This document shows, piece by piece, positions 7,295-14,511 of a stretch of 14,511 bases of DNA. Both the position numbers and the translations under genes were made by a program. How positions within the stretch are numbered: the stretch's first letter is position 1; each line of letters begins with the position of its first letter. The notes beneath the pieces were generated by a model. That model searched no databases. It was given only the letters and a program-made list of their open reading frames with translations, and was not told where the DNA came from. Location of the stretch: positions 1 through 14,511 of the IMG/VR virus record IMGVR_UViG_2579778535_000016. One strand, written 5' to 3'. The stretch comes from a virus (lineage: Duplodnaviria; Heunggongvirae; Uroviricota; Caudoviricetes).

Positions 7295-7319
7295 AAAAAA
7301 ACCCGACGCTAAGGTCGGG
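7295..7319 (-). terminator. Rho-independent terminator (CCCGAC-CUUAGC-GUCGGG followed by a U7 tract on the minus strand)
   Basis: GC-rich 6-bp stem followed directly by seven T on the transcribed strand, between the stop of the 200-aa gene (7340) and the tailspike start (7283). Confidence 0.7.
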
Positions 7320-7339
7320 CTGTGGTGACGGGAATTGTG

Positions 7340-7942
7340 TTATGGGTAAATCAGATCGCTATACTCAGAAAGTGTTATTGCTGTACCACCTTGTCCATCA
7401 GGTTGTTTGGCGGTAATTGTCCATTGTCCTGCATCAAGTTCCTCTGATGTGGCAATCACATATCTTGATGGAGACTGCACATCGAAGCCGTCGTAAAAGT
7501 TGAGTGATATGTCAGGAATTGCGGCTGTAAAACCAAAAGCCGTATCTGTTCTCGCAGAGGCGGGATAACGCGCTGTTGTGGCACCCATTGAGTCCGTAAC
7601 CTGAACATACATCGAACCTGAAAAGTTAATCCTTTCACTGGTTTCGAAGTTGTTACCATTGCGGGAAACGATATACCCGGCCTGCTGATTGGTATCGTAG
7701 GTATCAGGAACCTGAACCATATCACCGATATCCATGGAGTTGGCATAACCAGCCAGTTCAGTGAACGCCGAGCCAGTTTTGGATGTACTCTGATCGAGGT
7801 TATCCATTCCCTTGCCTGACTGCTGGGCGGCAACGTCAAGTTTATCCAGAGCATCAATGGCCTGTTTCCCGCCCTGTAGCAGCGGCTCAACGTCGGCGCT
7901 GATTTCATAAACGATGCTACCGGCGTTCTTCTCACCTGCCAT
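7340..7942 (-). CDS. Phage tail-region structural protein, function unassigned, 200 aa
   Basis: ATG with GGAG RBS; protein-like composition, whereas the overlapping alternative-frame ORF 7456..7947 is R/W/P-rich junk. Position between tail genes and tailspike. Confidence 0.55.
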   Translation of the reverse strand: MAGEKNAGSIVYEISADVEPLLQGGKQAIDALDKLDVAAQQSGKGMDNLDQSTSKTGSAFTELAGYANSMDIGDMVQVPDTYDTNQQAGYIVSRNGNNFETSERINFSGSMYVQVTDSMGATTARYPASARTDTAFGFTAAIPDISLNFYDGFDVQSPSRYVIATSEELDAGQWTITAKQPDGQGGTAITLSEYSDLIYP

Positions 7943-7954
7943 GTCATTCTCCGT

Positions 7955-8626
7955 TTATTTCTTTGCTTTTGCTCTACGGGCAGCCTGTTTAGCCAGGTAT
8001 TCGTCGGCGATATTGTCGTACTCTTCTCGCGTGAAGCCTTTCTGGTCAGGGTATTTCGCCGCCAGCAGCATCTGGAACTCGGTCATCGTTAACTGAGATG
8101 CTTCGGCGCGGTTCATTTCAAAATGACTACGCGCGGCACTGATGTAATCGAATGCTTTAAATTCGTTCGTTTTCGCTCCGGTTTCATGGCGCTGCAACTG
8201 GCGAATCTTGGCCTTTCCGACAACGCCATGCTGCATTAGGTGCTGCGCCAGCACGATGATGTCGTTCTTCGGCATTTGCCCGGGTCGGTAAACGACACAA
8301 TGCTGCCACCCCTTCCACTCGCCGATCATTGGCGTCAGGTCCTCATCGCAGCACGCCTGCAGCACCAGCATGCACGTTGATAACAACTTCTCAGCGGCGC
8401 GATTTAATGATGGAGATAGCCAGACAGGAAAACGACCCAGCGTGCCTGCACACATCTCAATGAGCTGAGCGACATCATTTCCGTGGATGGTGGCGTACGC
8501 TTGCACAATCTCTTCCGGAGTGCCGATCTTGGTCATGGCCTCGAATGAAGGCCGTAGCAGGTAATCTTTGCCTCCCTCACGGCTGTCGCTGATAGAGAGT
8601 TCGCCAATATCGGTTAAAGCGGTCAT
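7955..8626 (-). CDS. Phage protein, possibly a tail assembly chaperone, 223 aa
   Basis: ATG with GGAAGG RBS, directly downstream of the major tail protein gene; lysine-rich C-terminus. Function inferred from position only. Confidence 0.5.
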   Translation of the reverse strand: MTALTDIGELSISDSREGGKDYLLRPSFEAMTKIGTPEEIVQAYATIHGNDVAQLIEMCAGTLGRFPVWLSPSLNRAAEKLLSTCMLVLQACCDEDLTPMIGEWKGWQHCVVYRPGQMPKNDIIVLAQHLMQHGVVGKAKIRQLQRHETGAKTNEFKAFDYISAARSHFEMNRAEASQLTMTEFQMLLAAKYPDQKGFTREEYDNIADEYLAKQAARRAKAKK

Positions 8627-8683
8627 AGGCCTTCCAGTGAACGGTCATTATCAAGGGCAGCACGCCGCCCTTTGGAATACCCG

Positions 8684-9427
8684 TTAGCTGACGGTAACCG
8701 TATGCACAGCTACGAAGTTGCCGTCTTCGGTATTGATGATGATCTGCGCACTGCCTGCTGCAACGCGGTTCACTGTGACAGTGGTGCCGGAAGCGGTAGC
8801 AGTGGCTTTTGTTGGATCGGTTGATGCGACGGTGAAGTCTTTATTAGTTGCGCCAGTAGGTGCGATATTCACAGTGAAGGTGCTGGTACCACCAGCCGCG
8901 CCAGTGCTGGTTGCCGGAGTTACCGTCACGCCAGTCACAGCAACTGCGGTGATTTCATTCACTTCAATAGTGCTCGCATCGCCGACTTTGAACTCGGTGG
9001 AGAACGTGACGATGTCGTTGGTACCACCGTCAGAGCTCAGCGCCGTGATGTTCATGTAGCCGATAAATTCGACAGGGCCGTAGTCCATGCGAACCCAGAT
9101 CCCGGGCTGGCGCTTGGCCTTCAGCTCATCAGCGAAATACTTGATGAACTTGCCGACACCGTACTGATCCAGCTTGTCCTTCTTGCGCACTTCGCCTTCA
9201 AAGCTCAGGGTGAAATCACTGTTGGTGATGATGGTCTCGACATAGCCGCCGCCGTCATCCGCATCAGAGGTAACCGAGTTCGGGTTGAAGTCGAAGCCTT
9301 TCGACGTACCAGCAGCCAGCGCCATCCACTCAGCTTCGAGTGGTTTGACGTCCGGGCAGCCATCGGCGACTTCCAGCACGACCGCACCGCCGAACAGGCG
9401 CTCGTTCGAGTTCTGGCAATTAGCCAT
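8684..9427 (-). CDS. Major tail (tube) protein, lambda gpV-like, with C-terminal Ig-like (Big_2) domain, 247 aa
   Basis: C-terminal VTPATSTGAAGGTSTFTVNIAPTGATNKDFTVASTDPTKATATASGTTVTVNRVAAGSAQIIINTEDGNFVAVHTVTVS resembles the lambda gpV Ig-like domain. Strong RBS AAGAGGAG 6 nt before the ATG. Confidence 0.7.
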   Translation of the reverse strand: MANCQNSNERLFGGAVVLEVADGCPDVKPLEAEWMALAAGTSKGFDFNPNSVTSDADDGGGYVETIITNSDFTLSFEGEVRKKDKLDQYGVGKFIKYFADELKAKRQPGIWVRMDYGPVEFIGYMNITALSSDGGTNDIVTFSTEFKVGDASTIEVNEITAVAVTGVTVTPATSTGAAGGTSTFTVNIAPTGATNKDFTVASTDPTKATATASGTTVTVNRVAAGSAQIIINTEDGNFVAVHTVTVS

Positions 9428-9456
9428 GTGAAACTCCTCTTTGACGTATAAAAGAA

Positions 9457-9474
9457 AACCCGCCGGAGCGGGTT
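9457..9474 (-). terminator. Intra-operon stem-loop terminator/attenuator upstream of the major tail protein gene
   Basis: AACCCGC-UCCG-GCGGGUU followed by UUCUUUUAU on the minus strand, between the upstream ORF stop (9491) and the gpV-like start (9427). Confidence 0.55.
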
Positions 9475-9490
9475 ATTTGGTTGGGAATGG

Positions 9491-10149
9491 CTATTCGCCG
9501 TAAGTGCAGGCGAACTGGAGTCTGAAGACTATTCGCCCTTCTTCTGTGAGAACCGGCGCGGGGATTGCGCCCATGTTCTGGATGTAGCCGACGCAATCGT
9601 CAGCCATTGGGTTAGCCTGGACGTAATCGACGATACGCTGCACAGCGTTGAGCGCGTCTTTGCGCTTACCGGGATAAGTTTTACCAGCGCTGACTCGCCA
9701 AGGGATTTCACCAGCTTGATATCTACTGGTTCGTTCCACGACTTATTATCTTTCACCTGCAGCAGCAGCGCGGAGTAACGCCCAACCATATTGCGGCGGT
9801 CGGCATCCTTCACCTTCGGCCACAGCTTCTTCATGAACTTGGTAACTTTCTTTTCCCAGGCGTTTGTTTTCTCCGCTTCCTGCGCTTCATCACCGTCGAC
9901 AATGACCGGATAGTCCTGCCAGCAACCATCCAGCAGACGATGCACCACAGCAAAGCCAGCGGCGTTACGGCGGTACATGTTGTAGAAGTCGTTGAAGGTG
10001 ATCTCGCGCGGGTAGCCAAATTCCTGGTAAAGCGTCGGTCGCTTCGTGTTGCCGCCACCGATACCGATGGCATTCAGGTAATTCGCTCGCCGCATTTCAG
10101 TGGCGAGATTGTTCACAGCCATCTGCAGGCCGTTATCTTGTTCGCTCAC
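9491..10149 (-). pseudogene. Frame-disrupted phage morphogenesis gene directly after TerL (possible portal-region remnant)
   Basis: GTG start with strong AAGGAG RBS at 10149. The first roughly 155 codons look like protein, then the frame degenerates into S/T/R-rich sequence, while an overlapping frame (to 9491) becomes protein-like (..PWRVSAGKTYPGKRKDALNAVQRIVDYVQANPMADDCVGYIQNMGAIPAPVLTEEGRIVFRLQFACTYGE). Total length is far short of a portal. Confidence 0.45.
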
Positions 10150-10161
10150 TGGCGATGCTCC

Positions 10162-11634
10162 TTAGAAGAATACTGTGCCGACCTGCTTACGGTTGTTCTT
10201 CGTCACTGCGAAGTAACGGAAGCTGTCAGCACCATGCGAGGTGGCGTCATGGAGAGGTTTGTCTTTCCAGCAGCCGCGCTTGTCGTCCCATTCCTTCCGG
10301 TAGCCCTCAAGGTGAGAGATACCTTCCGAGCATTTATCCTCATCGAATACGCATTTCGGAAGGATTTCACGCGCCGACTCAATGCCAGTATAGATGCCAG
10401 CTTTCGGCACCACTTTGAAATTCAGTGAGTACATCTGACCGTCAATCTCGTAACCCTCGCGCGCCAGCTCTTTGCGTGACTTAGCATCAGCAGCGAACTC
10501 GCGGTTTTCGATGTCGTGCGGCCCCCAGTGCTCGCCATACTCATAGCCGCGGTCTTTCAGCACTTTCATGTAATGCCTCAGGCCCTCACCGGAGTTTTCG
10601 TAGTAGTCGATGATGTGGAACTCTTCGCCAACCTCGCGAACGAACCAGATCGCCGTGGAGTCACCCACACCGATATCCCAGAACGTGTGCACCGGGAGAT
10701 GCGAGTTATCCGGGATTTGGCCGATCCGCTTATTGGTGTAGAGCCAGCGGAACTGTTTGGCGTAATACGCGCCCTCGACAGATTGCTGGAACGCCTCGGC
10801 CGGAATGGTCGGGTATTCGCGCTTCATGTCGTCGCCGAGCGTTTTCTCTTTGGCGTAGTACCAGGCTTTCTGGCGATCGTTGACTACTACGCCGTGCTTC
10901 GCCTCCATCTCAGCGAAGTATTCCAGCAGGCGCACCGGCAGAGACTCGACCGGGTCGATTGCGTACTGCGGATTCTTCCACCAGGAGAAGAAGAAAAACT
11001 TCCAGTCCAGCGCGGATAACGGCTTGCCCTGCAGCAACGCCTTCTCTGCCGTCTGGCAGTAATCGAAGAAGTAACCCGCTCGGCCCTCTGCTGTGCTCTC
11101 GATGGTGGCGAAGCATCCGGTAGATACCGCCTCAAACGCACCAGTGACGATTTCACGGGCTTTGTCTGGATACTTGGCACATATCTTCCCGAACTCGGAA
11201 ACGTGCAGGTAACGCAACGTTCCGCCACGAAACGACGTACTGACGTATAGCGATCCGCCCTTCTTGAATACGAGCTCACCAGACGAATCATTGCTGGCCG
11301 GGTTGGCCGCCTTTATCTCTGCGGGCAACTTGTCGTATGCGTACTTTACCTTCTCGCGGAACAGACGTTTTGCGTCGTTCAGCGTGTGGGCGATCAGCGC
11401 GCACTTTGCTGACTCGAACAGGGCCGCGTCGAGCTGGATGATGCACACCTCGGTAGTGAATCCGAGCTGGCGTGCTTTCAGGATGATGTTGCGGGTGTGG
11501 ATCCCCTCGAAGTATTCCCGCTGCTCAGGCGTCATCCTGAAGCGCGTGGGCTTACCTTCTTTGTCGGTGATCCAGTAGAGATTGTTCAGCCGCCAGTCTT
11601 TATCGGACAGCAGCTTGATGTGCTCAGGTTTCAT
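10162..11634 (-). CDS. terL: Terminase large subunit, 490 aa
   Basis: N-terminal ATPase motif region (NIILKARQLGFTTEV), length and position after TerS; start ATG overlaps the TerS stop (TAATG). Confidence 0.9.
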   Translation of the reverse strand: MKPEHIKLLSDKDWRLNNLYWITDKEGKPTRFRMTPEQREYFEGIHTRNIILKARQLGFTTEVCIIQLDAALFESAKCALIAHTLNDAKRLFREKVKYAYDKLPAEIKAANPASNDSSGELVFKKGGSLYVSTSFRGGTLRYLHVSEFGKICAKYPDKAREIVTGAFEAVSTGCFATIESTAEGRAGYFFDYCQTAEKALLQGKPLSALDWKFFFFSWWKNPQYAIDPVESLPVRLLEYFAEMEAKHGVVVNDRQKAWYYAKEKTLGDDMKREYPTIPAEAFQQSVEGAYYAKQFRWLYTNKRIGQIPDNSHLPVHTFWDIGVGDSTAIWFVREVGEEFHIIDYYENSGEGLRHYMKVLKDRGYEYGEHWGPHDIENREFAADAKSRKELAREGYEIDGQMYSLNFKVVPKAGIYTGIESAREILPKCVFDEDKCSEGISHLEGYRKEWDDKRGCWKDKPLHDATSHGADSFRYFAVTKNNRKQVGTVFF

Positions 11635-12236
11635 TACGCCCCCTGAGACAGTGAATCCATCAGGTCAGACAGTTGCTTAACAGAGTTGTCACCTTCCGGC
11701 CCGTCGATATCGTAGGCCTGGCGCTCAAGACCAATCAGATTCTTCAGAGCGTCGCTCAGTGCCTTAACCGACTTAACGCGCTCCGGCATGCTGATGACCT
11801 TGTGGTAAATCTCGTTGAGCTTATCCTGACCTTTGTCGTCAGGGTCGAACATCAACTCTCCGAGCCTCTCCAGTGCGGCCACATCTGCGCACTCTGCGCC
11901 CAACTCATCAAACAGGGCGTTCGTTATCTGCCGGGCGCGCTTAATATCGCCGCGATGCTCCATGCGGACGTTGGCAATTACCTCAGCCGTCGCCTCGATG
12001 AGTACGCGTTCGTTAAAAGTGACTTCACTGCGTACCTGTTTGCGTACCTCGGCTTTGCGTACCAGATCGTCAGCGCGTTCTTTCACCTTCGCATTCAGGT
12101 CACGCGACCAGTCGTCACGCTTTGCGCGCTTACGGATAGCGCCTTCACTGATACCGTGTTGTGATGCTATTTCTCGGAGGGACATCACTCCGGCCCGGTA
12201 CGCCGTCTCGATGGCCTCCCAGTCCGGTTTGCTCAT
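11634..12236 (-). CDS. terS: Terminase small subunit, 200 aa
   Basis: N-terminal HTH-like segment (AGVMSLREIASQHGISEGAIRKRAKR), acidic C-terminus, translationally coupled to TerL; GGAG RBS. Confidence 0.75.
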   Translation of the reverse strand: MSKPDWEAIETAYRAGVMSLREIASQHGISEGAIRKRAKRDDWSRDLNAKVKERADDLVRKAEVRKQVRSEVTFNERVLIEATAEVIANVRMEHRGDIKRARQITNALFDELGAECADVAALERLGELMFDPDDKGQDKLNEIYHKVISMPERVKSVKALSDALKNLIGLERQAYDIDGPEGDNSVKQLSDLMDSLSQGA

Positions 12237-12239
12237 TCG

Positions 12240-12458
12240 TTACTCCGTTGTTTGTTCTTCTGGCTGTTCGGTCTGCTCTGCTGGTACTGGCGTGAACTCC
12301 ACGCGCTTAACGTCGGCAGGAGCAAAGTAAAGCCACTCGCCCGTCTCGGTCGCCAGCGGCACAAAGCCGTTAACCAGCTCAGGCTGACGTCGTGACATCT
12401 TGCCCGTGAAGGTTTCGCCTGTTTGGGTGGTTAACGTGATTTGGTAGATGTTGGACAT
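12240..12458 (-). CDS. Small hypothetical phage protein, 72 aa, acidic C-terminus
   Basis: ATG with AAGGG RBS; stop 1 bp from the TerS RBS region. No recognisable domain. Confidence 0.55.
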   Translation of the reverse strand: MSNIYQITLTTQTGETFTGKMSRRQPELVNGFVPLATETGEWLYFAPADVKRVEFTPVPAEQTEQPEEQTTE

Positions 12459-12778
12459 TGAGAATCCCTTTATCCGCTTGTGGGGATATCAGTTAAGTTA
12501 TCCCGTGTAGGGTATAAGCCATTGTCGAGACCATTCATTGAATGGCCTCTGCAATAACCGATGTCTTCATCAGTCCGCCACCACAAAGAATCTTTTTTGC
12601 CATAAGGCAAGAGATTCATCTTTCAGTGGCTGCCAGTGTTATTTCCCCACTTACTGGCTTGGGTTGTTTCGCGGTACTGCCGTAACTGGTGGTGCACAGA
12701 TTTAGTTAAATCCGTTCTCGCATGATCCAGCTTTTACATACCTGGATTGTGAGGGATGTAAATCACGGTTTCATTATC

Positions 12779-12800
12779 AAGCCCACCCGTAGATGGGCTT
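12779..12800 (-). terminator. Stem-loop (AAGCCCA-N8-UGGGCUU) 8 nt downstream of the Rha-family gene stop
   Basis: 7-bp stem read from the sequence; followed by A/T-rich sequence but no clean U-tract. Confidence 0.4.
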
Positions 12801-12808
12801 TGGAATGG

Positions 12809-13327
12809 TCACTTTGGCAGTCCGGGGATCGATATTTGCGCCTGCTGCTCAAGCCTTTCGATTCTTGCTATGAGTTGCGGTTTTTTGATCCTGCCCCAGC
12901 GGTTCAGCAAGCGTCCTGACATACTGGCAACATCCTTTTCCTTCATGAACTCCAGCATTAACTCGTTGTGCTCTCTTTGGTATGAGTGAGCCATCTCCAT
13001 CAGCCTGTCACGCATCCAATTAAATGCTTTGATAAACGCCTCTTTGATGGCGGCAGCTTTTTTGCCGGTAAACGACATGATGATGTACATCGCGCCGTCT
13101 TTGGAAATTTCATATTCAACATACTGATTACCCTTGTGTTCATAGGTAACCCGCGAAAAGTTGCTGGTTAGAAATTCATCCGAACAGTCTAGCTTTTCGA
13201 TTTTCTGAATGATGTGGTGATGCTGCTTGTCGAAGTAAGCTGCTACCTTGCGGGAGGTTGTGATCACGCGATCACCAGAAACAACCACCATGTCCCGGAA
13301 ATCGAGATTAGCCAATTGATGATTCAT
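12809..13327 (-). CDS. Rha-family phage regulatory protein, about 172 aa
   Basis: MNHQLANLDFRDMVVVSGDRVITTSRKVAAYFDKQHHHIIQKIEKL matches the Rha N-terminal domain. The track ORF extends to 13570, but the first 81 codons are non-protein-like; start placed at ATG 13325..13327 (AAAGG RBS). Confidence 0.7.
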   Translation of the reverse strand: MNHQLANLDFRDMVVVSGDRVITTSRKVAAYFDKQHHHIIQKIEKLDCSDEFLTSNFSRVTYEHKGNQYVEYEISKDGAMYIIMSFTGKKAAAIKEAFIKAFNWMRDRLMEMAHSYQREHNELMLEFMKEKDVASMSGRLLNRWGRIKKPQLIARIERLEQQAQISIPGLPK

Positions 13328-13669
13328 AGCGTCTTTACCTTTTAGAAAGTGAGCCTGTCTCACAGAAAAGCCGCCCGAGAGAGGTCGCCACCTATAACGG
13401 CATTTCTCAGGCTCGCTTACTGAAAGGCTCTCGTTAATATGCGCGTGAGATGCGCTGTGAAATTCAGATATAAAAAGCCCCGCGAATGCGAGGCTAAATC
13501 CTGGTATTTGTAATGAACTGGCTCTTATCTCAACGCAGCCCCTTACTGCGCGCCAGATGCTCAATATCAAGCATCAGCAATGAGATGTTTAATCTGGATT
13601 TACTCCAGAAGTGATCACCACCCTGTCTACAGAGCCAGATGTGAAGGATGATGAGTAAAATTATCGCTA

Positions 13670-14137
13670 TCATCGAAGGCATTGCGTCCTGATGTATTCC
13701 TGAAGCGTTCTCAGTGCTGTTTGGTCGCGGATAATTCCGTCCCGGACACCGAGAACGTTTCGTCCAGCAACTGGAGAGAGTTCGACGGTGGCATCATTGC
13801 CCATGCCGGAGGCGCCGGAGGTTTCGGCTGAGGATGGCACAGGGCATTTTCCTTTGACGAGCACCCTGCCACCATTATCAAGCTTGCGCCGAAGAGCATC
13901 ATTTTCAGCTTTCGCATCAGCTAACTCCTTCGTGTATTTAGCATCAAGTGCATCAGCAGTACGCTGGCGCTGCTGCATGTCAGTAATGGTGGCGGTCGCC
14001 TGCTTCAGTTCACTGGCCTTGTTATCGCGCTGTTCTTTATAGGTAATGGCGTTATCTCGGTAATGATTAACCGCCCATGACAGACAGACGATGATGCAGA
14101 TAATCAGAGCGGAGATAATCGCGGTTACTCTGCTCAT
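13670..14137 (-). CDS. Rz: Rz i-spanin (inner-membrane spanin), 155 aa
   Basis: [34 protein letters not shown]... is near-identical in pattern to lambda Rz; ATG overlaps the lysozyme stop (ATGA). Confidence 0.9.
13711..13917 (-). CDS. Rz1: Rz1 o-spanin lipoprotein embedded in the +1 frame of Rz, 68 aa
   Basis: [21 protein letters not shown]... with a lipobox (VAGC) and proline-rich stretch PKPPAPPAW, matching lambda Rz1 (MLKLKMML...VVGCTSK...PPPPPAW). Confidence 0.8.
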
Positions 14138-14511
14138 TGCTGCCCCCACAAACAGACTTCACGCTCAATCTCACGACGGGTCATCAGCCCTTTCCATTGC
14201 TTACCGCCAGCGTATGCCCAGCGACGTAGCTGGTCACATGCGCCCTTGATATCGCCCTGGTTGATTTTGCGAAGAAGCGTCGATGTTCTGAAATTGCCTG
14301 CGCCCACGTTATAGACGAACGAATAAAGAGCGCCGCGCGTTGTTTCCGGTATATCGACTTTGATGTACGGGTTAATTTGTCTGGCGACCGTGGCAAGGTC
14401 TTTATTCAGGAGGGCTTTGCATTCTGCTTCGGTATACGTTTTACCGGGAATGATGTCTTTTCCGGTGTGTCCGTGACATACAGTCCATACACCAACAATA
14501 TCTTTGTATGG
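14134..14511 (-). CDS. Phage lysozyme (T4-lysozyme family, RrrD/P21 R-like), 3' portion only; N-terminus lies beyond the window edge
   Basis: Minus-strand translation from the window edge reads [20 protein letters not shown]...LWGQQ and ends at TGA 14134..14136, overlapping the Rz start. Not in the ORF track because its start codon is outside the window. Confidence 0.85.

What the first reader, a model, noticed from the sequence alone, without database searches (positions are those of the whole stretch)
7340..12236. Late operon too short for a virion: terminase runs almost directly into tail genes
TerS and TerL are followed within 13 bp by a frame-disrupted ORF of about 660 bp, then a gpV-like major tail protein, two proteins of about 200 aa, and the tailspike. 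No portal, protease/scaffold, major capsid, head-tail connector or full-length tape-measure gene is present in the roughly 4.8 kb between TerL and the tailspike. This points to a deletion-scarred defective prophage, or less likely a satellite-like element that borrows a helper's capsid.
Basis: inference. Interest (0 to 1): 0.45.

Follow-up and report, generated by a model that had tools for sequence, protein, structure and literature searches.

The report
Prophage crippled by two recent deletions
This is an ordinary E. coli prophage that recently lost its head genes and most of its tail-tip genes through two clean deletions, so it almost certainly cannot build virus particles by itself.

Summary
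The window comes from an E. coli draft genome (GCA_000503395.1, contig AYQQ01000026.1). It holds a prophage integrated at tRNA-Arg(CCT), argW.

Intact copies of the same prophage in other E. coli assemblies are 100 % identical to the window over window 7729-14511. The window differs only by two missing blocks:
- **Deletion 1:** 7,118 bp. It joins portal codon 161 to tail-terminator codon 70, out of frame, at a 2-bp TA microhomology (window 9667/9668). It removes the rest of the portal gene, the Mu-F-like head morphogenesis gene, a DUF2213-like gene, the head decoration gene, the major capsid gene and five neck or connector-position genes.
- **Deletion 2:** 6,177 bp. It joins tape-measure codon 71 to TipJ codon 705, in frame, at a 3-bp ATA microhomology (window 7729-7731). 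It removes nearly all of the tape measure gene, three minor tail genes and 85 % of TipJ. The product is the "200-aa protein".

The fusion protein is a singleton among about 15 billion proteins. Neither junction occurs in 5,426 complete E. coli genomes.

Nothing suggests a satellite: the gene fragments are broken, the layout does not recur, and no hijacking genes were found. This is routine prophage decay, caught very early. Interest is low.

The parts
12240..12458 (-). Small conserved 72-aa gene just upstream of TerS. It is intact.
   Evidence: phrog_6581, E 5e-38. The same gene is present in the intact siblings.
11634..12236 (-). Terminase small subunit (TerS). It is intact.
   Evidence: phrog_1206, E 5e-95. 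It lies in the block that is 100 % identical to the intact sibling L006.
10162..11634 (-). Terminase large subunit (TerL), 490 aa. It is intact.
   Evidence: phrog_2, E 5e-41. The identical protein is found on 19 contigs, and it sits next to a full head operon on every contig long enough to show one, apart from the window's own.
9667..10149 (-). 5' fragment of the portal gene: codons 1-161 of 489.
   Evidence: phrog_146 portal, profile positions 15-159 of 587. The match to L006 ends at L006 position 11968, which is portal codon 161.
9667..9668 (.). Junction of deletion 1. 7,118 bp are missing. The microhomology is TA, and the join is out of frame.
   Evidence: The two megablast arms overlap by 2 bases. 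The junction sequences were read directly and the deletion length leaves a remainder of 2 when divided by 3.
9529..9666 (-). Out-of-frame read-through tail of the truncated portal ORF: 45 nonsense codons running to a stop.
   Evidence: The translation changes to SAKTRSTLCS... directly after portal codon 161.
9491..9666 (-). 3' fragment of the tail-terminator gene: codons 70-127 of 127. It has no start codon of its own.
   Evidence: PF23842 Phage_tail_terminator_3, positions 69-125 of 125, E 7e-21. It maps to L006 19087-19262.
8684..9427 (-). Major tail (tube) protein with a C-terminal Ig-like domain. It is intact.
   Evidence: phrog_853, E 2e-103, and Big_2. NF047353 tail tube. 100 % identical to the siblings.
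7955..8626 (-). DUF6246 protein, 223 aa. It is intact and occupies the tail-assembly-chaperone position between the tube and tape-measure genes.
   Evidence: PF19759, E 1.5e-71. The identical protein is found on 21 contigs. There is no PDB relative by sequence. The chaperone role is inferred from gene position only.
7729..7942 (-). 5' fragment of the tape-measure gene: codons 1-71 of 980.
   Evidence: phrog_1538 and phrog_1107 tape measure protein match only the N-terminal ~70 residues of the 200-aa ORF. tblastn gives 96 % identity to the tape measure N-termini of L002 and L003. It maps to L014 3165-3378.
7729..7731 (.). Junction of deletion 2. 6,177 bp are missing. The exact microhomology is ATA (5 of 6 bases if extended), and the join is in frame.
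   Evidence: 6177 is divisible by 3.
7340..7728 (-). 3' fragment of the TipJ-family tail-tip (host specificity) gene: codons 705-833 of 833. It is fused in frame to the tape-measure fragment.
   Evidence: phrog_469, positions 758-892 of 903. NF040662 TipJ, positions 345-476 of 477. It maps to L014 9556-9944.
5049..7283 (-). Tailspike or tail fibre with an SGNH/GDSL esterase domain. It is intact.
   Evidence: PF18668 Tail_spike_N and PF00657. Window 4132-7734, which includes this gene, is 99.94 % identical to the intact sibling L020 (2 mismatches in 3,603 nt).
4022..5035 (+). Low-GC acyltransferase, probably an O-antigen acetylase. It is lysogenic-conversion cargo convergent with the tailspike gene.
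   Evidence: PF01757, E 7e-25. GC is 34-35 % against about 54 % in the late genes.
1..1158 (+). IntS-type integrase at the argW end of the prophage.
   Evidence: The matching regions in RefSeq E. coli genomes are annotated intS. tRNA-Arg(CCT) lies about 160 bp beyond the integrase start on the source contig.

Best explanation
The region is the late operon of a temperate, lambdoid siphovirus-type prophage integrated at argW in one E. coli strain. It has suffered two independent and very recent internal deletions by illegitimate, microhomology-mediated recombination.

Deletion 1 (7,118 bp) runs from portal codon 161 to tail-terminator codon 70. It removes the remainder of the portal gene, the Mu-F-like head morphogenesis gene, a 462-aa DUF2213-like protein (possibly scaffold or protease), the head decoration protein, the major capsid protein, four small genes in connector position, the Neck1/tail-completion gene and the first half of the tail terminator. 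The join is out of frame, which produces the 'frame-disrupted ORF'.

Deletion 2 (6,177 bp) runs from tape-measure codon 71 to TipJ codon 705. It removes the tape measure body, three minor tail or tail-tip genes including the NlpC/P60 one, and 85 % of TipJ. The join is in frame and creates a 200-aa chimeric ORF.

The genes left behind are byte-identical leftovers, not a designed minimal set. They are TerS, TerL, the tube protein, DUF6246, the tailspike, the acyltransferase, the integrase and the lysis genes.

What is shown: the identity of the parent, the exact breakpoints and the list of lost genes. What is inferred: the deletion mechanism (slippage or illegitimate recombination at 2-3 bp repeats), and the consequence that the element cannot assemble capsids or tails on its own. 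It may still be able to excise, replicate, lyse the cell and express its O-antigen-modifying cargo.
For: 1. The source contig and genomic context were identified, with tRNA-Arg(CCT) next to the integrase.
2. The identical TerL is found on 19 contigs. In all of those long enough to show the neighbourhood, except the window's own contig, it is followed by portal (489 aa), Mu_F, 462-aa, 142-aa and 364-aa (capsid) genes, five small genes, the terminator, the tube gene, DUF6246 and a 980-aa tape measure gene. The operon continues through 164-, 156-, 139- and 833-aa (TipJ) genes to the same 744-aa tailspike and acyltransferase.
3. By megablast, window 9667-14511 equals L006 at 100 % over 4,845 nt, window 7729-9668 equals L006 at 100 % over 1,940 nt, and window 1-7734 equals L014 at 99.8 %. 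The arms abut with overlaps of 2 and 6 bases.
4. The junction sequences, deletion sizes and reading frames were read directly.
5. Profile matches cover only fragments: portal positions 15-159 of 587, terminator 69-125 of 125, the tape measure N-terminus, and TipJ 758-892 of 903.
6. The lost genes were named by PHROG. Their order matches an isolated, virion-forming phage (Enterobacter phage CobraSix) and an annotated E. coli prophage.
7. The fusion protein is a one-member cluster found on one contig. Neither junction exists in any of 5,426 complete E. coli genomes, and every match stops exactly at the breakpoint.
Against: There are no reads or experiments, so a chimeric assembly join cannot be formally excluded.

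The early region of this copy lies on another contig, so the overall state of the prophage is unknown.

Two deletions without a single substitution in the 6.8 kb that includes both junctions is a slightly unusual coincidence. It could hint at one complex event, or at selection, rather than two independent accidents.
Confidence: 0.9

Rival explanations
1. The element is a satellite-like or helper-dependent element. It keeps its own terminase, and therefore its own packaging specificity, together with its tube protein and tailspike, and it borrows capsids and tail tips from a co-resident related phage.
For: TerS and TerL are intact and identical to those of functional siblings. The tailspike is also intact. 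In principle, a related helper phage with a compatible portal could complement the missing genes.
Against: - The breakpoints lie inside genes and leave a frame-shifted portal stub, a start-less terminator stub and a tape-measure/TipJ chimera. Known satellites have intact, dedicated genes.
- The layout is seen in one assembly only.
- There are no sequence changes relative to the parent, so there has been no time for adaptation.
- No capsid-size-redirection, helper-interference or satellite-type replication genes turned up among the ten proteins that were profile-searched, namely those encoded between window 4022 and 12458.
Confidence: 0.03
2. The two gaps are assembly artefacts, that is, chimeric joins in a draft assembly, and the real prophage is intact.
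For: The source is a draft contig. The window sits at the end of that contig. No reads were available for checking.
Against: - Assemblers collapse sequence at repeats of k-mer length or longer. Here the shared sequence at the joins is only 2 and 3 bp.
- Both joins lie in unique sequence.
- The gene caller and NCBI record the fusion protein as WP_029392964.1, taken from that assembly.
- Two such artefacts within 2 kb would be very unusual.
Confidence: 0.05
3. This is adaptive domestication. The deletions were selected because they disarm the phage while keeping useful cargo (the O-antigen acetyltransferase, the esterase tailspike and immunity functions). This concerns why the deletions persisted and is compatible with the deletion mechanism.
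For: The same prophage has been truncated independently by IS1 in at least 20 other assemblies. Those copies also retain the TipJ stub, tailspike, acyltransferase and integrase end. The K-12 remnant KplE1/CPS-53 at the same argW site is likewise a 10.2-kb leftover that keeps its integrase (PMC2951348).
Against: - Loss of head and tail genes does not stop induction from killing the cell, because the spanin genes and the visible part of the lysozyme gene are unchanged from the siblings. That gives no obvious benefit.
- Retention of the att-proximal end is expected anyway when deletions start elsewhere.
- A single strain cannot show selection.
Confidence: 0.1

Closest known systems
Intact sibling prophage at argW in other E. 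coli assemblies (for example GCA_018160195.1 contig DADZFN010000002.1, loci L006 and L014; Logan SRR32877974 contig, L020)
   Same: It uses the same integration site. It has the same integrase, acyltransferase, tailspike, tube protein, DUF6246 protein, TerL, TerS, Rha and lysis genes. Nucleotide identity over everything the window retains is 99.8-100 %.
   Different: The sibling has 13,295 bp more: the complete portal-to-terminator and tape-measure-to-TipJ blocks.
Enterobacter phage vB_EclS_CobraSix (Cobrasixvirus, NC_071003) and Enterobacter phage ENT1. Both are isolated temperate siphoviruses.
   Same: The tail module has the same order: terminator, Ig-domain tube protein, DUF6246-like protein, tape measure, two minor tail proteins, NlpC/P60 protein, TipJ-like protein, tailspike. 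Window 7854-9667 is 89 % identical in nucleotides to CobraSix. The terminase and portal region is 84-87 % identical to ENT1.
   Different: These are complete, virion-forming phages. Their TipJ C-terminus is only 56-58 % identical in amino acids, and their tailspike bodies differ from the window's.
KplE1 / CPS-53, the defective prophage at argW in E. coli K-12
   Same: It has the same attachment tRNA (argW) and an IntS-type integrase. It is a prophage reduced by deletion that still keeps its att-proximal end (PMC2951348; intS annotation). From my own knowledge, not tested here, that retained end includes O-antigen-modification-type genes.
   Different: KplE1 is an old 10.2-kb remnant with almost no late genes. 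The window's element is a fresh double deletion that still carries the terminase, tube, tailspike and lysis genes.
Phage satellites (PICIs, capsid-forming PICIs, P4-like elements)
   Same: The only shared feature is superficial: a phage-like island with packaging genes but without a full structural gene set.
   Different: Satellites are conserved, recurrent elements with intact dedicated genes. This element is unique to one strain and is made of truncated fragments of a normal phage operon.

Membership tests
Deletion-derived defective (cryptic) prophage | Integrated at a phage attachment site next to a phage integrase | tested here: met
   tRNA-Arg(CCT) lies about 160 bp from the start of the IntS-type integrase on the source contig. 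The matching regions in RefSeq E. coli are annotated intS.
Deletion-derived defective (cryptic) prophage | Collinear with an intact phage or prophage except for missing internal segments | tested here: met
   There are three collinear blocks, two at 100 % and one at 99.8 % identity to the siblings L006, L014 and L020. They are separated by gaps of 7,118 bp and 6,177 bp.
Deletion-derived defective (cryptic) prophage | Essential morphogenesis genes are absent or truncated, with breakpoints inside coding sequences | tested here: met
   The remaining fragments are portal codons 1-161 of 489, terminator codons 70-127 of 127, tape measure codons 1-71 of 980 and TipJ codons 705-833 of 833. The capsid, Mu-F, decoration and neck genes are absent.
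Deletion-derived defective (cryptic) prophage | Unable to produce infectious particles on its own | not testable with these tools
   This needs induction and plaque assays or electron microscopy. It is inferred from the loss of the capsid, portal and tape measure genes.
Phage satellite (PICI, cf-PICI or P4-like) | A reduced architecture that is conserved and recurs across many genomes | tested here: not met
   The fusion protein forms a one-member cluster on one contig. Neither junction is present in any of 5,426 complete E. coli genomes.
Phage satellite (PICI, cf-PICI or P4-like) | Intact dedicated genes for helper exploitation (capsid-size redirection, helper interference, its own primase or replication module) rather than gene fragments | tested here: not met
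   No such families were found among the ten proteins searched against Pfam and PHROGs, which are those encoded between window 4022 and 12458. What is present are broken pieces of ordinary structural genes. The proteins encoded at window 1-3921 were not profile-searched, and the early region lies outside the window and was not examined.
Phage satellite (PICI, cf-PICI or P4-like) | Helper-dependent packaging and transfer | not testable with these tools
   This requires an experiment.
Cobrasixvirus-like / ENT1-like temperate siphovirus late operon (parent type) | The gene order runs TerS, TerL, DUF1073-type portal, Mu-F, DUF2213, decoration, capsid, connectors, terminator, Ig-domain tube, DUF6246, tape measure, minor tail proteins, TipJ, tailspike | tested here: met
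   The feature is met by the intact siblings and by the annotated relatives. The window itself retains only the ends of each block.

The most novel reading that the evidence does not exclude
The doubly deleted prophage could be a newborn helper-dependent element. With its own intact TerS and TerL (and hence its pac recognition), tube protein and tailspike, it could be packaged and spread by a co-resident or superinfecting sibling phage that supplies procapsids and tail tips. That would be a snapshot of the first step from phage to satellite.
Probability: 0.03. Interest if true: 0.5.

Novelty: already known. Interest (0 to 1): 0.1.

Why it matters
This matters little beyond annotation.

It is a clean, base-resolved example of the earliest stage of prophage decay. 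Two microhomology-mediated deletions have occurred, and there are no substitutions at all relative to the intact siblings in the 6.8 kb (window 7729-14511) that includes both junctions. Alongside it, the same prophage has been truncated independently by IS1 in other strains.

Practical consequences for annotation:
- The 206-aa and 82-aa ORFs should be marked as pseudogene fragments of the portal and tail-terminator genes.
- The 200-aa ORF (WP_029392964.1, annotated 'hypothetical protein') should be marked as a tape-measure/TipJ pseudogene chimera.
- Prophage-finding tools should score this element as defective despite its intact terminase.

Tried and rejected
- **Satellite reading:** rejected. 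The breakpoints fall inside genes, the layout is a singleton, and the sequence is identical to the intact parent.
- **P22-like podovirus late region:** considered because of the P22-type int, ant and arc neighbourhood. Rejected, because the late genes are siphovirus-type (tube, tape measure, TipJ) and the tailspike N-terminus matches the tail fibres of the siphovirus relatives.
- **Solved structures:** sequence searches of the PDB with DUF6246 and with TerL gave nothing usable.
- **NCBIfam:** it added only the tube and TipJ names.
- **Literature:** a search for the WGS accession AYQQ00000000 found no paper.
- **Second copy in the same strain:** I tried to look up the sibling's capsid protein, to see whether the same assembly holds a second intact copy or a helper.
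- **Not run:** the large protein searches, structure prediction and the metagenome and genome scans. Exact-identity look-ups had already identified the parent prophage.


Full report
**What is in the window**

All genes of the finding lie on the minus strand.
- TerS (12236-11634; phrog_1206, E 5e-95) and TerL (11634-10162; phrog_2, E 5e-41) are full length.
- Thirteen bases after the TerL stop, the stretch 10149-9491 holds two overlapping ORFs in different frames.
  - The 206-aa ORF matches only positions 15-159 of a 587-position portal profile (phrog_146).
  - The 82-aa ORF matches only positions 69-125 of the 125-position tail-terminator family PF23842.
- Next come an intact major tail (tube) protein with a Big_2 domain (9427-8684) and an intact DUF6246 protein (8626-7955).
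- The 200-aa ORF (7942-7340) is a chimera. Its first ~70 residues match tape-measure N-termini. Residues 68-199 match the last ~130 positions of TipJ-family tail-tip proteins.
- The 744-aa protein (7283-5049) has a Tail_spike_N domain and a GDSL/SGNH esterase domain.
- The tailspike gene is convergent with a low-GC Acyl_transf_3 gene (4022-5035).

TerL and the tailspike are about 2.9 kb apart, not 4.8 kb.

**Where it comes from**

An exact-sequence look-up of the 200-aa chimera finds one contig: E. coli GCA_000503395.1, AYQQ01000026.1. The prophage there is flanked by a Form_Nir_trans-family gene and a MlaA-family gene. A tRNA-Arg(CCT) gene lies about 160 bp beyond the integrase start. This is the argW site, which is also used by the K-12 remnant KplE1/CPS-53 (PMC2951348). 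The integrase region matches regions annotated intS in RefSeq E. coli genomes.

**The intact parent**

The window's TerL protein occurs, residue for residue, on 19 contigs. On every one long enough to show the neighbourhood, other than the window's own contig, TerL is followed by these genes:
- a 489-aa portal (PF06381)
- a Mu-F-like head morphogenesis protein
- a 462-aa protein, the counterpart of the gene annotated DUF2213 in the relatives
- a 142-aa head decoration protein
- a 364-aa capsid protein
- four small proteins in connector position
- a Neck1/tail-completion protein
- a 127-aa tail terminator
- the tube protein, the DUF6246 protein and a 980-aa tape measure protein

Look-ups with the DUF6246 protein and with a near-identical tailspike extend the operon further. 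It continues through 164-, 156- and 139-aa (NlpC/P60) minor tail proteins and an 833-aa TipJ protein. It then reaches the same 744-aa tailspike, acyltransferase, Arc-family gene and integrase at the same chromosomal site. PHROG names for the genes are given.

The same gene order is found in an annotated E. coli prophage (30EVA1; 92 % nucleotide identity). The tail module has the same order in the isolated phage CobraSix.

**The breakpoints**

The window aligns with the intact siblings as three blocks:
- Window 9667-14511 equals L006 11968-7124 at 100 % over 4,845 nt.
- Window 7729-9668 equals L006 21024-19085 at 100 % over 1,940 nt.
- Window 1-7734 equals L014 17295-9550 at 99.8 %. The differences are 2 mismatches and one 12-nt indel in a hexanucleotide repeat.

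The junctions were then read directly.
- Deletion 1 is 7,118 bp. That is not a multiple of 3. The shared dinucleotide is TA. It joins portal codon 161 to position 2 of terminator codon 70.
- Deletion 2 is 6,177 bp, which equals 3 × 2,059. The shared trinucleotide is ATA, or 5 of 6 bases if extended. It joins the first base of tape-measure codon 72 to the last two bases of TipJ codon 705. This makes a 200-codon in-frame chimera.

In total 13,295 bp are missing. The parent has about 18.2 kb between the TerS start and the tailspike start, and the window has about 5.0 kb.

**How unique and how recent**

- The chimera is a one-member cluster among about 15 billion proteins.
- Queries of 200 nt centred on each junction find no spanning match in 5,426 complete E. 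coli genomes. Every match stops exactly at the breakpoint.
- There are no substitutions at all in the 6.8 kb (window 7729-14511) that includes both junctions, and only two in the remaining 7.7 kb. The deletions are therefore very recent on an evolutionary scale.

**Interpretation**

The best explanation is routine prophage decay by two illegitimate-recombination events at 2-3 bp microhomologies. The retained genes are leftovers. Without portal, capsid, connector, tape-measure and tail-tip genes, the element cannot build particles by itself. That consequence is inferred, not tested.

The element may still excise, replicate, lyse the cell and express its conversion genes. This cannot be judged here, because the early region lies on another contig.

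The rivals are weaker:
- The satellite reading fails on recurrence and on gene integrity.
- An assembly artefact is unlikely, because the joins share only 2-3 bp, but it cannot be excluded without reads.
- An 'adaptive disarming' gloss is possible but unsupported, because the spanin genes and the visible part of the lysozyme gene are unchanged from the siblings.

**Comparison with what is known**

This is the same kind of object as the classical cryptic prophages of E. coli, for example KplE1/CPS-53 at the same tRNA gene. It has simply been caught much earlier in its decay. It is not a new kind of element.

**Side observations**

- A perfect (CAGAGG)8.5 array lies 50 nt upstream of the acyltransferase start. 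Its unit number varies between 3, 7, 8 and 10 among otherwise near-identical copies. That is the signature of a possible contingency repeat.
- At least 20 other assemblies carry a different remnant of the same prophage. In those, IS1 abuts TipJ near codon 290, next to dsdC.

Noticed in passing
window 3922-3972: A perfect hexanucleotide array, (CAGAGG)8.5, lies between the stop of the Arc-family gene (3921) and the start of the acyltransferase gene (4022). The unit number differs among otherwise near-identical prophage copies: 3 (L016), 7 (L015, L018, L019), 8 (window, L017) and 10 (L014). This could be a contingency or phase-variation repeat controlling O-antigen acetylation.
   Followed up: partly
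L015 7369-8319; the starts of L017-L019: The same prophage is truncated in a different way in at least 20 other E. coli assemblies. An IS1 element (InsA and InsB ORFs) sits between dsdC and a 541-aa TipJ fragment, and everything from TipJ codon ~290 to the far end of the prophage is gone. The draft contigs break at exactly this point.
   Followed up: partly
window 4022-7283: An SGNH/GDSL-esterase tailspike is convergent with a low-GC (34-35 %) Acyl_transf_3 gene. This looks like a de-acetylase/acetylase pair of the kind typical of O-antigen seroconversion and superinfection exclusion. The acyltransferase looks like foreign cargo, since the late genes have about 54 % GC.
   Followed up: no
window 1-3921: The integrase-proximal region is a P22/HK620-like module: an IntS-type integrase, a 129-aa Peptidase_S24 protein, a 134-aa protein with only the P22_AR_C domain (possibly a truncated antirepressor) and an Arc-family repressor. 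It is joined to a siphovirus late operon, so the parent phage is a mosaic.
   Followed up: no
window 7340-7728 and 5049-7283, compared with L001-L004: The TipJ C-terminus is only 56-58 % identical in amino acids to the Enterobacter and E. coli relatives, whereas the neighbouring tube and DUF6246 genes are about 89 % identical in nucleotides. The tailspike matches the relatives only at its N-terminal ~120 nt. This indicates a host-range cassette swap at the tail tip.
   Followed up: no
window 12809-13570 (-): The mechanical ORF of 253 aa starting at TTG overstates the Rha-family gene. The gene called on the source contig is 172 aa (PF09669 Phage_pRha plus ORF11CD3).
   Followed up: no
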